Below are positions 895 through 49,141 of a stretch of DNA of 64,000 bases, in pieces. The stretch comes from Escherichia coli. GTDB lineage: Bacteria; Pseudomonadota; Gammaproteobacteria; Enterobacterales; Enterobacteriaceae. Position 1 is the first letter of the stretch; each line of letters opens with the position of its first letter. The translations under genes and the position numbers were made by a program. The stretch lies in assembly GCF_051903065.1 (NCBI RefSeq), contig NZ_CP178438.1; one strand, given 5' to 3'. The notes beneath the pieces were generated by a model. It was not told the origin of the DNA and made no database searches. It was given only the letters and a program-made list of their open reading frames with translations.

Positions 895-1180
895 ACAAAT
901 TCCTTACTGAAAATACTGCGCTGCACTATACGGGGTTAATAAAATAAAGCCAGCGATATTTAAGACCGCCGGACGGCTAAAATAAAATTTGCTTAATCTC
1001 AATTATCATGCGTTAATAGCTGCGTCGGTTTGAAAGACAGACAGCATACAAAGTAGTTTACTAAAGCAGTTCTCATTATCAGGCATTATCCCCTTCTTTT
1101 GAGTCTCTCTCCTGAACACTAAGTAGTTTCTGTATTAAAGCCCTGTTTGCCGAAAGGCCCAACAATGAAGGAAGTAAAAT

Positions 1181-1393
1181 ATGTCTAATAAAATGACTGG
1201 TTTAGTAAAATGGTTTAACGCAGATAAAGGTTTTGGCTTTATCACTCCTGATGATGGCAGCAAAGACGTTTTCGTCCATTTCACCGCCATCCAGAGCAAT
1301 GAATTCCGCACGCTGAACGAAAATCAGAAAGTTGAATTTTCTATTGAGCAGGGGCAACGTGGCCCCGCGGCAGCGAACGTTGTTACGCTCTAA
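1181..1393 (+). CDS. cspG: Cold-shock protein CspG (70 aa)
   Basis: Track [37 protein letters not shown]...; the roughly 285-bp untranslated region upstream is typical of a cold-shock gene leader. Confidence 0.93.
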
Positions 1394-1592
1394 GGTTGCC
1401 GTTATTACTCAACATCTCCATTTCCGCTGTCCATGTTGTCATGGTTCACAGTACCGTACATCGGCATTCGATGTGACGGAGCGAAACCCTTTGGGCGCTA
1501 AGTGTATTTTTTGTAAATCGACGATGATCACCTTTGATAACGTCGCGCTGCAAATACGCACTGACCATGCGCCGCTGGATTTCACAAAATAA
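1359..1592 (+). CDS. ymcE: Small zinc-ribbon protein (YmcE/Sfa-like) overlapping the 3' end of cspG; start codon uncertain (GTG 1359 or TTG 1332)
   Basis: Track ORF 1332..1592 with CPCCHG...CIFCKS Cys pairs; position immediately after cspG matches the K-12 order. Confidence 0.45.
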
Positions 1593-38087: not shown

Positions 38088-39152
38088 ATGGTAACGTCCT
38101 GTACTGGACATGTTTTAGATAATCAACGCGCCACCACTCGCGGAGTTTTCTCCTCCGGTAGTCATCTCGTCACTTTGCATTTTCAACCTCATCCTTTCTT
38201 TTCATGTGTTACCGACGCCGTAAACGGTGCGCGTAGCCGTTTTTCGGCATTTTATCCAAAAGCAAACTATGGCTTACAAGGAAGCCAACCCTCTGATGTT
38301 CGTGCGCATAATCGCGCTGCCAACGGCGCGTGTGATGAATACAAACAACTCAAGGTGCTCTCCATGGGAAGACAAAAAGCAGTGATCAAAGCTCGTCGCG
38401 AGGCAAAACGTGTGCTGAGACGGGATTCGCGCAGCCATAAGCAGCGTGAAGAAGAATCGGTCACCTCGCTTGTGCAGATGAGCGGCGTAGAAGCCATTGG
38501 TATGGCCCGCGACAGTCGCGATACCTCGCCCATCCTCGCGCGAAATGAAGCGCAATTGCACTATCTAAAGGCTATTGAGAGTAAGCAGCTGATATTCGCT
38601 ACGGGCGAAGCCGGGTGCGGAAAAACCTGGATCAGTGCAGCAAAAGCGGCAGAGGCCCTGATACATAAGGATGTCGACAGGATTATCGTCACCCGTCCAG
38701 TTCTGCAAGCCGATGAAGATCTTGGTTTCTTACCTGGAGATATCGCAGAAAAGTTTGCTCCCTATTTTCGCCCGGTATACGACGTGCTGGTCCGGCGCTT
38801 AGGGGCTTCCTTTATGCAGTACTGCCTGCGACCGGAAATAGGGAAGGTGGAAATTGCGCCGTTCGCCTATATGCGTGGACGTACCTTTGAAAATGCAGTT
38901 GTCATTCTTGACGAGGCGCAGAATGTGACTGCCGCGCAAATGAAAATGTTTTTAACCCGCCTCGGGGAGAACGTGACGGTTATCGTTAACGGTGATATCA
39001 CGCAATGCGATTTACCTCGCGGCGTGCGCTCCGGATTAAGTGACGCACTGGAACGTTTCGAAGAAGATGAAATGGTCGGGATCGTCCGATTCGGTAAAGA
39101 GGATTGCGTACGTTCGGCACTTTGCCAACGTACGCTGCATGCATACAGTTAA
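38088..39152 (+). CDS. phoH: PhoH (phosphate-starvation-inducible ATPase); a shorter product from an internal start is possible
   Basis: 354-aa track ORF with Walker A GEAGCGKT and PhoH-like core; internal in-frame MGRQKAVIK near 38365. Confidence 0.88.
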   Translation: MVTSCTGHVLDNQRATTRGVFSSGSHLVTLHFQPHPFFSCVTDAVNGARSRFSAFYPKANYGLQGSQPSDVRAHNRAANGACDEYKQLKVLSMGRQKAVIKARREAKRVLRRDSRSHKQREEESVTSLVQMSGVEAIGMARDSRDTSPILARNEAQLHYLKAIESKQLIFATGEAGCGKTWISAAKAAEALIHKDVDRIIVTRPVLQADEDLGFLPGDIAEKFAPYFRPVYDVLVRRLGASFMQYCLRPEIGKVEIAPFAYMRGRTFENAVVILDEAQNVTAAQMKMFLTRLGENVTVIVNGDITQCDLPRGVRSGLSDALERFEEDEMVGIVRFGKEDCVRSALCQRTLHAYS

Positions 39153-45973: not shown

Positions 45974-47332
45974 ATGGAAAAAGACTATTTGAGAATTAGT
46001 AGTACTGTCTTAGTGAGCTTATTGTTTGGGCTTGCTTTGGTTTTGGTGAATAGTTGGTTTAATCAGCCAGGCGTTGAGGAAGTTGTTCCACGATCAACCT
46101 ATCTGATGGTAATGATTGCTTTATTTTTTATCGATACTGTTGCATTTATTTTTATGCAGTTGTATTTCATTTATGACCGTAGGCAATTTTCAAACTGTAT
46201 ACTTAGTTTGGCTTTTCTGAGTTGTTTGATTTACTTTGTTAAAACCGTCATTATCATTCAGCAAATGATTGAGGGGCGTTTGACAAGCAGTGTTGTTCAA
46301 AATGACATTGCAATTTATTATTTGTTTCGTCAGATGAGTTTGTGCATATTAATATTTCTGGCATTGGTGAATAAAGTTAGTGAAAACACAAAACAGCGCA
46401 ATTTATTTTCCAAAAAAATGACTTTGTGCATAAGTTTGTTTTTTGTTCTTGGGGGGCCGATAGTTGCTCACATACTTTCTAGCCATTATGAGAGCTACGA
46501 TTTACACATTGCCGAGTTAACCAATGAAAATGGTCAAGTGGTTTGGAAAACTTCATATGTTACCATAATGATTTTCATGTGGTTAACCTTGCTTTCGGTT
46601 AATCTATACTTTAATGGTTTACGCTATGATATCTGGAACGGAGTGACGGTGATTGCTTTTTGTGCCGTACTGTACAATGTCTCTCTTTTATTTATGAGCA
46701 GGTATAGCGTGTCCATTTGGTATATTAGTCGCACTATTGAAGTAGTCAGTAAGTTAACCGTTATGGTAATATTTATGTGCCATATATTCAGTGCGCTACG
46801 AGTAACAAAGGACATTGCACATCGCGATCCCTTAACCAATATATTTAACAGAAATTATTTTTTTAATGAACTGACGGTTCAATCAGCATCGGCCAAAAAA
46901 ACGCCTTATTGCGTCATGCTTATGGATATCGACCACTTCAAAAAAGTCAACGACACCTGGGGGCATCCGATTGGCGATCAGGTGATAAAAACAGTGGTGA
47001 ATATCATTGGGAAAAGCATACGGCCAGATGACCTTTTTGCGCGCGTCGGCGGCGAAGAGTTTGGCGTCTTGCTGACGGACATCGATACTGAACGTGCGAA
47101 AGCTTTAGCGGAAAGGATTCGGGAAAATGTTGAGCGTTTAACTGGTGATAATCCTGAATACGCCATACCACAAAAAGTGACGATTAGTATTGGCGCTGTT
47201 GTGACTCAGGGAAATGCGTTAAACCCGAATGAGATCTATCGACTGGCTGATAACGCACTATACGAGGCGAAAGAGACCGGGCGTAATAAGGTGGTTGTGA
47301 GGGATGTGGTGAATTTTTGTGAGTCACCATAA
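45974..47332 (+). CDS. dgcT: Membrane-anchored diguanylate cyclase DgcT (YcdT), GGDEF domain
   Basis: ATG 45974 (MEKDYLRISSTVLVSLLFGLALVLV...), multi-TM N-terminus, then GGDEF domain with RVGGEEFGVLL. Confidence 0.9.
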   Translation: MEKDYLRISSTVLVSLLFGLALVLVNSWFNQPGVEEVVPRSTYLMVMIALFFIDTVAFIFMQLYFIYDRRQFSNCILSLAFLSCLIYFVKTVIIIQQMIEGRLTSSVVQNDIAIYYLFRQMSLCILIFLALVNKVSENTKQRNLFSKKMTLCISLFFVLGGPIVAHILSSHYESYDLHIAELTNENGQVVWKTSYVTIMIFMWLTLLSVNLYFNGLRYDIWNGVTVIAFCAVLYNVSLLFMSRYSVSIWYISRTIEVVSKLTVMVIFMCHIFSALRVTKDIAHRDPLTNIFNRNYFFNELTVQSASAKKTPYCVMLMDIDHFKKVNDTWGHPIGDQVIKTVVNIIGKSIRPDDLFARVGGEEFGVLLTDIDTERAKALAERIRENVERLTGDNPEYAIPQKVTISIGAVVTQGNALNPNEIYRLADNALYEAKETGRNKVVVRDVVNFCESP

Positions 47333-47429
47333 AGCGGCATTTTAGCGGGTGATTTTGGTAAGCGCTAAATAGCTATTCGCAGACATGCGTAACAATTTTC
47401 AGAAATATCATAGTACTATATGATCTTAA

Positions 47430-49040
47430 ATGCTTATCATTGATCAGTCTGCTATCACCCGCTTTTACTGGCAATTGTACTATAATTTCTTAGGTTGTAT
47501 CACCCTGATGCGTGGGGAAACATGTATGGTATTCAACAAAAAAATGTTTGTACTCATTATAATACCAGGCATTCTGGGGGTGTTACTGTCGTTTGCTATG
47601 TCAGTATTTCAAATGAATCGAGATACGACAATTACCGCCGGTATTCTGTTAAAACAGCTTGATAATGTTACGCAAATTGTCCAGCATACGACAAAGCTTA
47701 CCTCTATTCTGGTGATGAAGCCCTGCAAAGACATTCTTGAACAGTTGATTGCTAACGGAGCATTGACTCCCTATGTTCGAACAACGGGTCTTATAGAAAA
47801 TAATTTCCAAATATGTTCTTCAGTTAGCGGTTTCAAAAAAATGAATGTTAACGATGTTTACGGTACGAGCTTTCACAATAAAAATAAAGAATCACGCATA
47901 GTATCCATTAGCGGTACAAGTTTTGTACCAGGTAAAACAGCCATAGTATTCCTTATGCCAATAGGGAATGATATGACAGCTTTTAGTATTGTAGAGTCAC
48001 GATATATCTATGATCTAATGGATGTTCTTGATGATGAGAATGATGATTCATTTTCTCTTAGCTTTACTGAAGGGCCTGCAATTATTAGTGGTGTAAATAA
48101 TAATGACAAGTTATATATGTTAAAAAAAGATTTTAATTCTGCGATCAGTCAGGCTAGTCTTACAGTTACTACGCCGATGATTTCATTATATCCCTATGTC
48201 ATTAGTAATGTGTTTTACATTCTTCCATTATCTATTCTTCTTTCTTTTATCCTGTACTTCTTATGGCAGCGCTGGATATCTCGAAAAATGTCCCTGGCAG
48301 AAGAAATTAAAAAAGGAATGTCATCTGGAGAATTTTCAGTGCATTATCAACCAGTATGTGACACGACAACAAAAGAGTGTCTGGGGGTTGAAGCGTTAAT
48401 GCGTTGGCAACGCGAAGATGGTAAAAATATATCTCCGGTAGTTTTTATCCGCGCTGCAGAAGAGGAAAATTTAATTATACCGTTAACTAAGCATCTCTTT
48501 GAACTGATTATTCAGGATGTACAAAGCTGGAAAGTGAAAAAGCCGTTTCACCTTGGGATAAATATTGCCGCGGAGCATCTTGCACATCCTGATTTTGTTG
48601 CTGATGTTTTACATATTAAAAATGCAATATCTGATAAATTTAACATTGTTCTTGAGATTACCGAACGCAATCTGGTTGAAGATACTGATCTTGCATTACA
48701 GAAAATAAATGAATTAAGGATCCATGGCTGTGAATTTGCAGTTGATGATTTTGGCACGGGATATTGTTCCCTTGGCCTTCTGCAAAAGTTGTCTGTTGAT
48801 TATCTTAAAATAGATAAAAGCTTTATAGACACACTCACTACAGCGGAAGACGAAACGCCAGTTTTAGATATTATTATTAAGCTGAGTAATCGACTCAATT
48901 TGATAACGATTGCAGAAGGTGTCAGTACTCCTCACCAGGCGGAATATCTTATTCATAATAACGTGACATTAGTTCAGGGATACTTATATGCAAAACCAAT
49001 GAAAGCGACAGAATTTTATCAGTGGTATGTAAACAGATAA
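47430..49040 (+). CDS. pdeT: CSS-motif c-di-GMP phosphodiesterase (EAL domain), PdeT/VmpA-like; start codon uncertain
   Basis: Two TM segments flanking a periplasmic domain, then an EAL domain (EALMRW, DDFGTGYCSL, KIDKSFI); intact reading frame. Confidence 0.78.
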   Translation: MLIIDQSAITRFYWQLYYNFLGCITLMRGETCMVFNKKMFVLIIIPGILGVLLSFAMSVFQMNRDTTITAGILLKQLDNVTQIVQHTTKLTSILVMKPCKDILEQLIANGALTPYVRTTGLIENNFQICSSVSGFKKMNVNDVYGTSFHNKNKESRIVSISGTSFVPGKTAIVFLMPIGNDMTAFSIVESRYIYDLMDVLDDENDDSFSLSFTEGPAIISGVNNNDKLYMLKKDFNSAISQASLTVTTPMISLYPYVISNVFYILPLSILLSFILYFLWQRWISRKMSLAEEIKKGMSSGEFSVHYQPVCDTTTKECLGVEALMRWQREDGKNISPVVFIRAAEEENLIIPLTKHLFELIIQDVQSWKVKKPFHLGINIAAEHLAHPDFVADVLHIKNAISDKFNIVLEITERNLVEDTDLALQKINELRIHGCEFAVDDFGTGYCSLGLLQKLSVDYLKIDKSFIDTLTTAEDETPVLDIIIKLSNRLNLITIAEGVSTPHQAEYLIHNNVTLVQGYLYAKPMKATEFYQWYVNR

Positions 49041-49141
49041 ATAATTAACCAATATTGGAATGTTTTTTTATTGCCTTAAAATATAAACAAAGCCATCAGA
49101 AGGTTATTATCTGATGACAAGCGCAATGATCAACACTACTG

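What the first reader, a model, noticed from the sequence alone, without database searches (positions are those of the whole stretch)
47430..49040. Intact CSS-domain EAL phosphodiesterase gene paired with dgcT
Downstream of the GGDEF gene dgcT lies an uninterrupted ORF with two TM helices flanking a periplasmic domain and a complete EAL domain (EALMRW, DDFGTGYCSL, KIDKSFI). From memory, this gene (pdeT/vmpA) is absent or disrupted by IS3 in K-12 and has been linked to motility and biofilm phenotypes in EHEC. Its presence next to the pga and csg loci suggests locally encoded c-di-GMP turnover that is relevant to biofilm regulation. The annotated start is uncertain: the track begins at 47430, but MVFNKKMFVLIII... 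is a plausible internal start.
Basis: partly seen in the sequence, partly recalled or inferred. Interest (0 to 1): 0.4.

Follow-up and report, generated by a model that had tools for sequence, protein, structure and literature searches.

The report
Intact known pdeT (vmpA) phosphodiesterase gene
This is an intact copy of pdeT/vmpA, an already described E. coli gene for a membrane-bound enzyme that degrades the biofilm signal c-di-GMP; it is real but ordinary, and the one useful correction is that it most likely starts 96 bases downstream of the first ATG.

Summary
The ORF at 47430-49040 (+) is real and uninterrupted. It encodes TM1, a periplasmic CSS domain, TM2 and an EAL domain. It is the known accessory gene pdeT (vmpA, Z1528 of O157:H7 EDL933). 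It is 100% identical in DNA to genes that RefSeq names pdeT, and 529/536 residues match the EDL933 protein. It sits directly downstream of dgcT, as published.

All EAL catalytic signature residues and both CSS cysteines are present. dN/dS against the EDL933 allele is 0.07.

K-12 and SE11 lack the gene. In them homology stops 11 nt after the dgcT stop codon, where an IS3 sits. pdeT occurs in 412 of 5426 complete E. coli genomes.

The start is most likely ATG 47526 (504 aa), not 47430. Homologues in other genera all begin there, it has the only good Shine-Dalgarno sequence, and RefSeq's pdeT entries use it.

In this strain the rest of island OI-47 is gone. The neighbouring fidL-like gene is frameshifted, and grvA is truncated by an IS1 that replaces about 30 kb.

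The mechanism (redox-gated c-di-GMP hydrolysis, as in PdeC) is inferred by homology. Local coupling to DgcT, pga or csg is untested.

Verdict: confirmed, already known, low interest.

The parts
45974..47332 (+). dgcT (ycdT), a diguanylate cyclase gene of 452 aa, with GGEEF active site and RxxD I-site intact
   Evidence: RefSeq annotation of the identical locus. GGDEF TIGR00254 E 1.6e-45. Motifs read from the translation.
47344..47525 (+). Left edge of the OI-47 remnant and the pdeT 5' region. Homology with pdeT-less strains (K-12, SE11 and about 2200 other genomes) ends at 47343.
   Evidence: No intrinsic terminator is predicted between dgcT and pdeT.
47480..47486 (+). CTATAAT, a candidate -10 element of the sigma-S type (C at -13). 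It lies inside the 96-nt extension of the long ORF. This is inference only.
   Evidence: Read from the sequence. Z1528 is 9-fold RpoS-dependent in EDL933 (PMC2907692). The generic sigma-70 scan did not list this site and found no more sites than shuffles give.
47514..47519 (+). GGGGAA Shine-Dalgarno-like sequence upstream of ATG 47526 (8 nt separate the last G from the ATG)
   Evidence: The anti-SD duplex is -5.5 kcal/mol here, the best of all in-frame candidate starts. ATG 47430 gives +0.6.
47526..49040 (+). pdeT (vmpA) coding sequence with the preferred start, 504 aa
   Evidence: RefSeq pdeT coordinates in the 100% identical genome. Fourteen homologues from other genera and K-12 PdeN all begin at this position.
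47430..47525 (+). 32-codon 5' extension of the longest ORF. Older annotations such as EDL933 use it; it is probably not translated.
   Evidence: No homologue covers it. There is no SD. EDL933 annotates the long form.
47544..47606 (+). TM1 (long-form residues about 39-59)
   Evidence: Hydropathy peak.
47619..48095 (+). Periplasmic CSS-motif domain. The two conserved cysteines are at 47724-47726 (C99 long form, C67 short form) and 47814-47816 (C129 / C97, in the motif CSS).
   Evidence: Pfam PF12792. Both cysteines are invariant in 16 homologues. Codons read.
48198..48266 (+). TM2 (long-form residues about 257-279)
   Evidence: Hydropathy peak.
48300..48998 (+). Cytoplasmic EAL domain with its catalytic signature: E321/R325, N378, E409/E412, D439-D440, K460, E496, Q516 (long-form numbering)
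   Evidence: Pfam PF00563. These residues are invariant in alignment A2. The domain aligns to the solved PA3825 EAL domain at E 2.7e-45.
49142..49632 (-). fidL-like (YqeJ-family) gene, the partner of GrvA. It is a pseudogene through a 1-nt deletion in a T run near 49390.
   Evidence: Identified as FidL via PMC9214523 and annotations.
49637..50263 (-). grvA (ToxR-family regulator, z1531), 3' remnant only. About 62 N-terminal codons, including part of the DNA-binding domain, are lost to IS1.
   Evidence: PMC8565820 and PMC10877973.
50264..51031 (-). IS1 (768 bp). It replaces about 30 kb of OI-47 (SDR gene, fimbrial, hemagglutinin-like and fatty-acid-like clusters, ycdU).
   Evidence: IS1 terminal repeats are visible at both ends. 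EDL933 map. The exact junction occurs in only 3 complete genomes.
51243..51330 (-). tRNA-Ser (GGA), serX, the right-hand landmark of the region
   Evidence: ARAGORN and Rfam.

Best explanation
The gene is an intact, expressible copy of pdeT (vmpA), the sixth CSS-domain c-di-GMP phosphodiesterase of E. coli. The product is most likely 504 aa, starting at ATG 47526. It has a six-residue cytoplasmic tail, TM1, a periplasmic CSS domain of about 195 residues with two conserved cysteines, TM2, and a cytoplasmic EAL domain. The EAL domain hydrolyses c-di-GMP to linear pGpG in a metal-dependent reaction. This lowers c-di-GMP and shifts the cell towards motility and away from matrix and biofilm production. 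By analogy with PdeC and PdeB, a DsbA/DsbB-made disulfide between the two periplasmic cysteines should keep the enzyme in a low-activity state. Reducing or low-oxygen conditions should activate it and expose the CSS domain to DegP/DegQ cleavage. Expression is probably sigma-S dependent in stationary phase, from a promoter of its own within 47344-47525, possibly with read-through from dgcT. Shown here: identity, intactness, architecture, conservation of the catalytic and cysteine residues, purifying selection, genomic context and distribution. Inferred: enzymatic activity, redox gating, promoter and start codon.
For: The DNA is 100% identical to RefSeq-named pdeT and 529/536 aa match EDL933 Z1528/VmpA. 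The literature places vmpA/pdeT immediately downstream of ycdT in EDL933 and lists PdeT/VmpA as an extra CSS-domain PDE (PMC4287979 and PMC5897775). CSS and EAL domains are found with two TM segments. Every EAL signature residue and both cysteines are invariant across 16 homologues. The nearest solved structure is the PA3825 EAL domain. dN/dS versus EDL933 is 0.07, from 27-28 synonymous and 7 non-synonymous differences. For start 47526: homologues at 36-55% identity (alignment A2) and K-12 PdeN (31%) begin there, it has the best SD, and RefSeq uses that start. The redox and protease mechanism was shown for PdeC and PdeB with Cys75/Cys106 (PMC5897775); the PdeT cysteines are 30 residues apart in the same domain. 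Z1528 is 9-fold RpoS-dependent (PMC2907692).
Against: No biochemical or expression data exist for this allele or this strain. The primary VmpA paper (Branchu et al.) and Povolotsky & Hengge 2016 are not in the held library, so the activity claims rest on titles and secondary citations. The fourth residue of the EGVE motif is Ser (EGVS) and loop 6 reads GYCS rather than GYSS. Both changes are shared by the whole subfamily, including EDL933, and the first Glu, which I take from memory to be the catalytic base (RocR E352), is kept. The two neighbouring island genes are pseudogenes, so the region is decaying in this lineage. The promoter is a consensus-level guess, and the generic scan found no excess of promoter-like sites.
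Confidence: 0.88

Rival explanations
1. The true product is the 536-aa form that starts at ATG 47430, as annotated in EDL933 and in most database entries. It would carry a 32-residue cytoplasmic N-terminal extension.
For: It is the longest ORF. The extension is open in both alleles compared, and their single difference (47498) is synonymous in that frame. The 536-aa form represents a cluster of 1841 database sequences. EDL933 RefSeq annotates it.
Against: No homologue outside E. coli has any counterpart of the extension. Fourteen proteins from eight genera (Enterobacter, Klebsiella, Serratia, Lelliottia, Citrobacter, Salmonella, Erwinia and others) start within a few residues of M33, as does K-12 PdeN. 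There is no SD before 47430 (+0.6 against -5.5 kcal/mol). The newer RefSeq pdeT entries use 47526. A good -10 hexamer lies inside the extension. One substitution in 96 nt cannot test whether the extension is under coding constraint.
Confidence: 0.1
2. The gene is intact in sequence but no longer functional in this lineage. It would be a silent leftover of a decaying island that has simply not yet acquired a lesion.
For: The adjacent fidL-like gene is frameshifted, grvA is truncated, and about 30 kb of the island has been replaced by IS1. About half of E. coli genomes carry an IS3-scarred deletion at this site, so losing the gene is tolerated.
Against: dN/dS of 0.07 between alleles shows long-term constraint. 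The identical allele is found in at least 6 complete genomes from calves, water and humans. The 5' region, the SD and all catalytic residues are untouched. The IS1 deletion stopped 1.2 kb short of pdeT.
Confidence: 0.1
3. DgcT and PdeT form a dedicated local cyclase/phosphodiesterase pair that specifically controls PGA (pgaABCD) or curli output from the neighbouring loci.
For: The two genes are adjacent on the same strand, 193 nt apart, with no predicted terminator. dgcT is divergent from pgaABCD and has been proposed to act on PGA (PMC4287979). In this strain the IS1 deletion leaves csgD only about 7 kb from pdeT.
Against: The pairing is not conserved. PdeT homologues in Enterobacter, Klebsiella and Citrobacter sit in unrelated accessory contexts with no GGDEF gene nearby. 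Most E. coli keep dgcT without pdeT. The published vmpA phenotypes are global ones (motility, biofilm). Closeness to csg comes from the usual chromosome layout plus a deletion.
Confidence: 0.12
4. The EAL domain is catalytically dead and acts as a c-di-GMP sensor or trigger protein rather than an enzyme.
For: The motifs deviate slightly from consensus: EGVS instead of EGVE and GYCS instead of GYSS.
Against: All residues used to classify active EAL domains are present: ExLxR, N, ExxE, DD, K, the first E of EGVE, and Q. The literature treats VmpA/PdeT as a functional phosphodiesterase.
Confidence: 0.04

Closest known systems
PdeT / VmpA (Z1528, ECs1272 region) of E. coli O157:H7 EDL933, first gene of O-island 47
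   Same: It is the same gene: same position directly downstream of dgcT, same length and architecture, 98% DNA and 98.7% protein identity (529/536), and an identical 5' region except for one base.
   Different: There are seven amino-acid differences (Q85K, S211R, K227R, E316A, L421H, I431S, P501S, written window to EDL933), none at a signature residue. The rest of OI-47 is missing here (IS1 deletion), whereas EDL933 has the full island of about 32 kb.
PdeC (YjcC) and PdeB of E. coli K-12, the studied archetypes of CSS-domain phosphodiesterases (Herbst et al. 2018, PMC5897775)
   Same: They share the TM1, CSS domain (two cysteines), TM2, EAL architecture. The cysteine spacing is about 30 residues (PdeC C75/C106; PdeT C67/C97 in the short form). 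PdeC and PdeB are under sigma-S control (PMC5897775), and Z1528 is RpoS-dependent.
   Different: PdeT is a distinct paralogue, not part of the core genome. Redox gating and DegP/Q processing have not been shown for PdeT.
PdeN (Rtn) of E. coli K-12, the K-12 CSS-domain paralogue compared here and the best-scoring NCBIfam model (NF007839)
   Same: The two align over the full length with the same architecture and the same N-terminal register.
   Different: Identity is only 31%. The NCBIfam score of 312 bits is below the 461-bit cut-off, so PdeT is not a PdeN orthologue. The other four K-12 CSS-domain paralogues were not compared pairwise.
Unnamed CSS-EAL proteins of Enterobacter, Klebsiella, Citrobacter, Lelliottia and Serratia (51-56% identity)
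   Same: These are the closest relatives outside E. coli. They share the architecture, the EGV(S/T) motif and the GYCS loop 6 variant.
   Different: No homologue was found between 57% and 97% identity. Their genomic contexts are different and variable, next to fimbrial, adhesin or IS genes and never next to dgcT.

Membership tests
PdeT/VmpA orthologue group | Near-identity to the reference protein Z1528 of EDL933 | tested here: met
   529/536 identical, no gaps. DNA is 100% identical to RefSeq genes named pdeT.
PdeT/VmpA orthologue group | Position immediately downstream of dgcT (ycdT), at the left end of O-island 47 | tested here: met
   Same order pgaA / dgcT / pdeT / fidL-like / grvA as in EDL933. 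The literature describes this placement.
PdeT/VmpA orthologue group | c-di-GMP phosphodiesterase activity, with effects on motility and biofilm | not testable with these tools
   Known only from secondary citations of Branchu et al.. The primary paper is not held.
CSS-domain c-di-GMP phosphodiesterases (Herbst et al. 2018) | [quoted passage not shown] | tested here: met
   Pfam CSS-motif 64-222 and EAL 291-523. Hydrophobic segments at 39-59 and 257-279.
CSS-domain c-di-GMP phosphodiesterases (Herbst et al. 2018) | Two highly conserved periplasmic cysteines, the second in a CSS motif | tested here: met
   C99 and C129-S130-S131 (long form). C99, C129 and S130 are invariant in 16 homologues.
CSS-domain c-di-GMP phosphodiesterases (Herbst et al. 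2018) | DsbA/DsbB-dependent disulfide that lowers activity; DegP/DegQ processing of the reduced form | not testable with these tools
   Shown for PdeC and PdeB only.
Catalytically competent (class I) EAL domains | Signature residues ExLxR, N, ExxE, DDFG(T/A)GYSS, KxD, EGVE (first Glu taken as catalytic base) and QG | tested here: met
   E321/R325, N378, E409/E412, D439-D440, K460/D462, E496 and Q516-G517 are all present and invariant. Deviations are EGVS and GYCS, at positions that vary in this subfamily. That the first Glu is the catalytic base (RocR E352) is from my own knowledge; PMC12900916 says only that the base lies in the EGVE motif.
PdeN (Rtn) equivalog NF007839 | Score at or above the curated cut-off of 461 bits | tested here: not met
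   312 bits and 31% identity to K-12 PdeN. PdeT is a paralogue, not PdeN.

The most novel reading that the evidence does not exclude
After an IS1-mediated deletion removed the rest of O-island 47, and the adjacent GrvA/FidL regulator pair was inactivated, pdeT alone has been kept intact next to dgcT. The most novel reading still open is that pdeT is selected independently of the EHEC island and works with DgcT as a self-contained two-gene c-di-GMP module that tunes PGA or curli output in non-EHEC lineages. It would have its own sigma-S promoter and a redox input from the periplasm.
Probability: 0.1. Interest if true: 0.3.

Novelty: already known. Interest (0 to 1): 0.1.

Why it matters
It matters little beyond correct annotation. 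The gene adds one c-di-GMP-degrading enzyme to this strain's signalling set compared with K-12, which may shift its balance between motility and biofilm. Three small practical points come out of the check. (1) The 536-aa model used in EDL933 and most databases is probably 32 residues too long. (2) pdeT, and at least the adjacent fidL-grvA-SDR segment of OI-47, are not confined to O157:H7, O55:H7 and O145 as some reviews state. About a quarter of the 410-412 carrier genomes diverge by more than 1% from the EDL933 sequence, and the examples listed come from animals, water, food and humans. (3) This strain shows that pdeT can persist after the virulence regulator GrvA and the rest of the island are lost.

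Tried and rejected
1. I looked for a PdeT-specific NCBIfam model. None scored above its cut-off; the best was the PdeN model at 312 of 461 bits. RefSeq's pdeT name must therefore come from another rule.

2. The sigma-70 promoter and intrinsic terminator scans of 47200-49300 found 10 promoter-like sites against 8.2 expected, and no terminators. They do not help with the start or operon question. RNA folds of the dgcT-pdeT spacer, the 5' extension and the pdeT 3' flank are no more stable than shuffles (z -0.5, +0.1, -1.5).

3. I tested whether a GGDEF neighbour or the GrvA/FidL pair is conserved next to PdeT homologues in other genera. No GGDEF gene was adjacent in any. One Enterobacter locus has a Trans_reg_C plus FidL_like pair 2.3 kb away, and the others have nothing comparable. 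There is therefore no support for a conserved module.

4. I tried to use allele variation to test coding constraint on the 96-nt extension. There is only one substitution against EDL933, which is uninformative.

5. The primary papers (Branchu 2013; Povolotsky & Hengge 2016; Hengge nomenclature 2016) are not held.

6. Pfam and NCBIfam on the EDL933 FidL-like protein gave nothing. Its identity comes from the literature and from other genomes' annotations.

7. I considered structure prediction and dropped it. Model coordinates are not returned, so the Cys-Cys distance could not be measured.

Full report
**Observation**

The window has a single uninterrupted ORF at 47430-49040 on the + strand (536 aa, ATG start). 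Pfam finds a CSS-motif domain at residues 64-222 (E 5.6e-13). It also finds a complete EAL domain at 291-523, matching model positions 2-236 of 236 (E 3e-64). A hydropathy scan gives exactly two strongly hydrophobic segments, at about 39-59 and 257-279, one on each side of the CSS domain. Upstream on the same strand lies dgcT (45974-47332), with GGEEF and RxxD motifs intact.

**Identity**

The 1.8-kb region is 100% identical to E. coli 23CRST027, where RefSeq names the gene pdeT, [quoted passage not shown]. Five more complete genomes carry an identical coding sequence. The whole window is colinear with 23CRST027, differing by a few SNPs and one 1-nt indel inside an IS1.

Against O157:H7 EDL933 the gene is 98% identical in DNA and 529/536 identical in protein, without gaps. 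Richter et al. [quoted passage not shown] Herbst et al. (PMC5897775) list PdeT/VmpA as an additional CSS-domain phosphodiesterase of certain EHEC and EPEC strains. Reviews place it in O-island 47. This is therefore a known, named gene.

**Is it functional in sequence terms?**

I aligned the protein with 15 homologues: one E. coli cluster representative and 14 proteins from Enterobacter, Klebsiella, Serratia, Lelliottia, Citrobacter, Salmonella and Erwinia, at 36-55% identity. The following residues are invariant in that alignment:
- E321 and R325 (ExLxR)
- N378
- E409 and E412
- D439-D440 with FGTG
- K460 and D462
- E496-G497
- Q516-G517

The nearest solved structure is the EAL domain of PA3825 (E 2.7e-45), and the same motifs align to it.

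There are two departures from the textbook motifs: EGVS for EGVE and GYCS for GYSS. Both are shared by the EDL933 protein and by most of the subfamily. They do not affect the first Glu of the motif, which I take to be the catalytic base. That assignment is my own knowledge of RocR E352. PMC12900916 says only that the base lies in EGVE.

The two periplasmic cysteines (C99 and C129, the latter in CSS; C67 and C97 counted from the short start) are invariant. Between the window and EDL933 alleles there are 28 synonymous and 7 non-synonymous differences, giving dN/dS of 0.07. This indicates purifying selection.

**Start codon**

- RefSeq's pdeT entries start at window 47526 (MVFNKKMF..., 504 aa), whereas EDL933 and the large database cluster use 47430.
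- All 14 homologues from other genera begin within a few residues of M33, and none has a counterpart of the 32-residue extension.
- K-12 PdeN aligns from its residue 8 to residue 3 of the short form.
- ATG 47526 is preceded by GGGGAA at a spacing of 8 nt. Its anti-SD duplex is -5.5 kcal/mol, the best of the seven in-frame candidates. ATG 47430 has no SD (+0.6).
- The short form gives a typical Lys-rich tail, MVFNKK, before TM1.
- A CTATAAT hexamer at 47480-47486 lies inside the extension. Z1528 is 9-fold RpoS-dependent in stationary-phase EDL933 (PMC2907692), so this is a plausible sigma-S -10 element. It would place the transcript start downstream of 47430. This last point is inference. The generic promoter scan is no better than chance.

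I put the short start at about 0.85-0.9.

**Context**

In K-12 EMG2 and in SE11, similarity to the window ends at 47343, 11 nt after the dgcT stop codon. An IS3 follows, then the 3' fragment of an ACP S-malonyltransferase gene, ycdU and tRNA-Ser. In EDL933 that malonyltransferase gene is complete and is the last gene of the island of about 32 kb that begins with pdeT.

In the window a different deletion has occurred.
- pdeT is followed by the fidL-like gene (49142-49632, -), which carries a 1-nt deletion in a T run.
- Next is grvA (49637-50263, -), which has lost about 62 N-terminal codons.
- A 768-bp IS1 (50264-51031) then joins directly to the ycdU-serX spacer.

GrvA is the ToxR-family "global regulator of virulence A", and FidL is its predicted periplasmic partner (PMC8565820, PMC10877973, PMC9214523). 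The exact IS1 junction is present in only three complete genomes.

**Distribution**

pdeT is present in 412 of 5426 complete E. coli genomes. The fidL-grvA-SDR segment is present in 410 genomes, and 400 of them carry it essentially complete. Of those, 307 are at least 99% identical to EDL933; the sampled examples are O157:H7 and O55:H7. About 100 are more divergent. The listed examples include O145 and isolates from otter, pig, chicken, cattle and humans, and pdeT itself is also found in isolates from baboon, mink and water. So the gene is somewhat more widespread than the "O157-specific" wording of some reviews.

Outside E. coli the nearest relatives are only 51-56% identical. They lie in varied accessory contexts with no adjacent GGDEF gene.

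**Mechanism**

The best-supported mechanism is a membrane-anchored, metal-dependent c-di-GMP phosphodiesterase. Its periplasmic CSS domain acts as a redox switch. The oxidised form, with a DsbA/DsbB-made disulfide, has low activity. The reduced form is active and open to DegP/DegQ processing into an active TM2+EAL fragment. This was demonstrated for PdeC and PdeB (PMC5897775).

The suggestion that DgcT and PdeT form a local module for pga or csg control remains speculative. The genes are 193 nt apart with no predicted terminator. However, the pairing is not conserved elsewhere, and most E. coli keep dgcT alone.

**Verdict**

The added value is modest: a better-supported start codon, a description of the IS1-truncated island remnant, and a wider host range than often stated. 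Interest is low.

Noticed in passing
window 49142-51031: The GrvA/FidL co-component regulator pair of O-island 47 is inactivated here. The fidL-like gene has a 1-nt deletion in a T run (about 49390). grvA has lost its N-terminal roughly 62 codons to a 768-bp IS1 (50264-51031), which also replaces about 30 kb of the island including ycdU. The exact junction is seen in only 3 complete E. coli genomes.
   Followed up: yes
window 31926-33269 (-) and 33270-34450: A 447-aa ORF annotated 'hypothetical protein' lies between putP and efeU. It has no Pfam, NCBIfam or PADLOC match. About 1.2 kb without any annotated gene follows it.
   Followed up: partly
window 47165-47681: The 3' end of dgcT, the spacer and the first roughly 150 nt of pdeT differ from EDL933 at only 1 of 517 positions, against about 2% in the flanking coding sequence. 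This could be a shared recombination tract or a constrained regulatory and 5' region.
   Followed up: no
window 12200-13548: An IS1397 (IS3-like) element is inserted between torD and cbpM, according to the annotation of the near-identical genome 23CRST027.
   Followed up: no
window 38954-39147 (-): There is a strong Rfam match to Ysr251 (Yersinia sRNA 251; 187.6 bits against a gathering score of 100). It lies antisense to the 3' end of phoH.
   Followed up: no
window 56930-57021 (-) and 1024-1447 (+): Rfam ES056 sRNA matches just upstream of the csgD coding region, in the csgD leader. The cspA-type thermoregulator matches over the cspG leader and gene. Both are expected features of this chromosomal region.
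   Followed up: no
window 34451-35281 (+): efeU is annotated as an intact permease gene in the near-identical genome. From memory, K-12 carries a frameshifted efeU; this was not checked here.
   Followed up: no
L006:9852-11097 (Enterobacter hormaechei CP169086.1): A Trans_reg_C regulator plus FidL_like gene pair lies about 2.3 kb downstream of the PdeT homologue in this Enterobacter genome, echoing the pdeT / fidL / grvA neighbourhood of OI-47. It was not seen in the Klebsiella or Citrobacter loci.
   Followed up: partly
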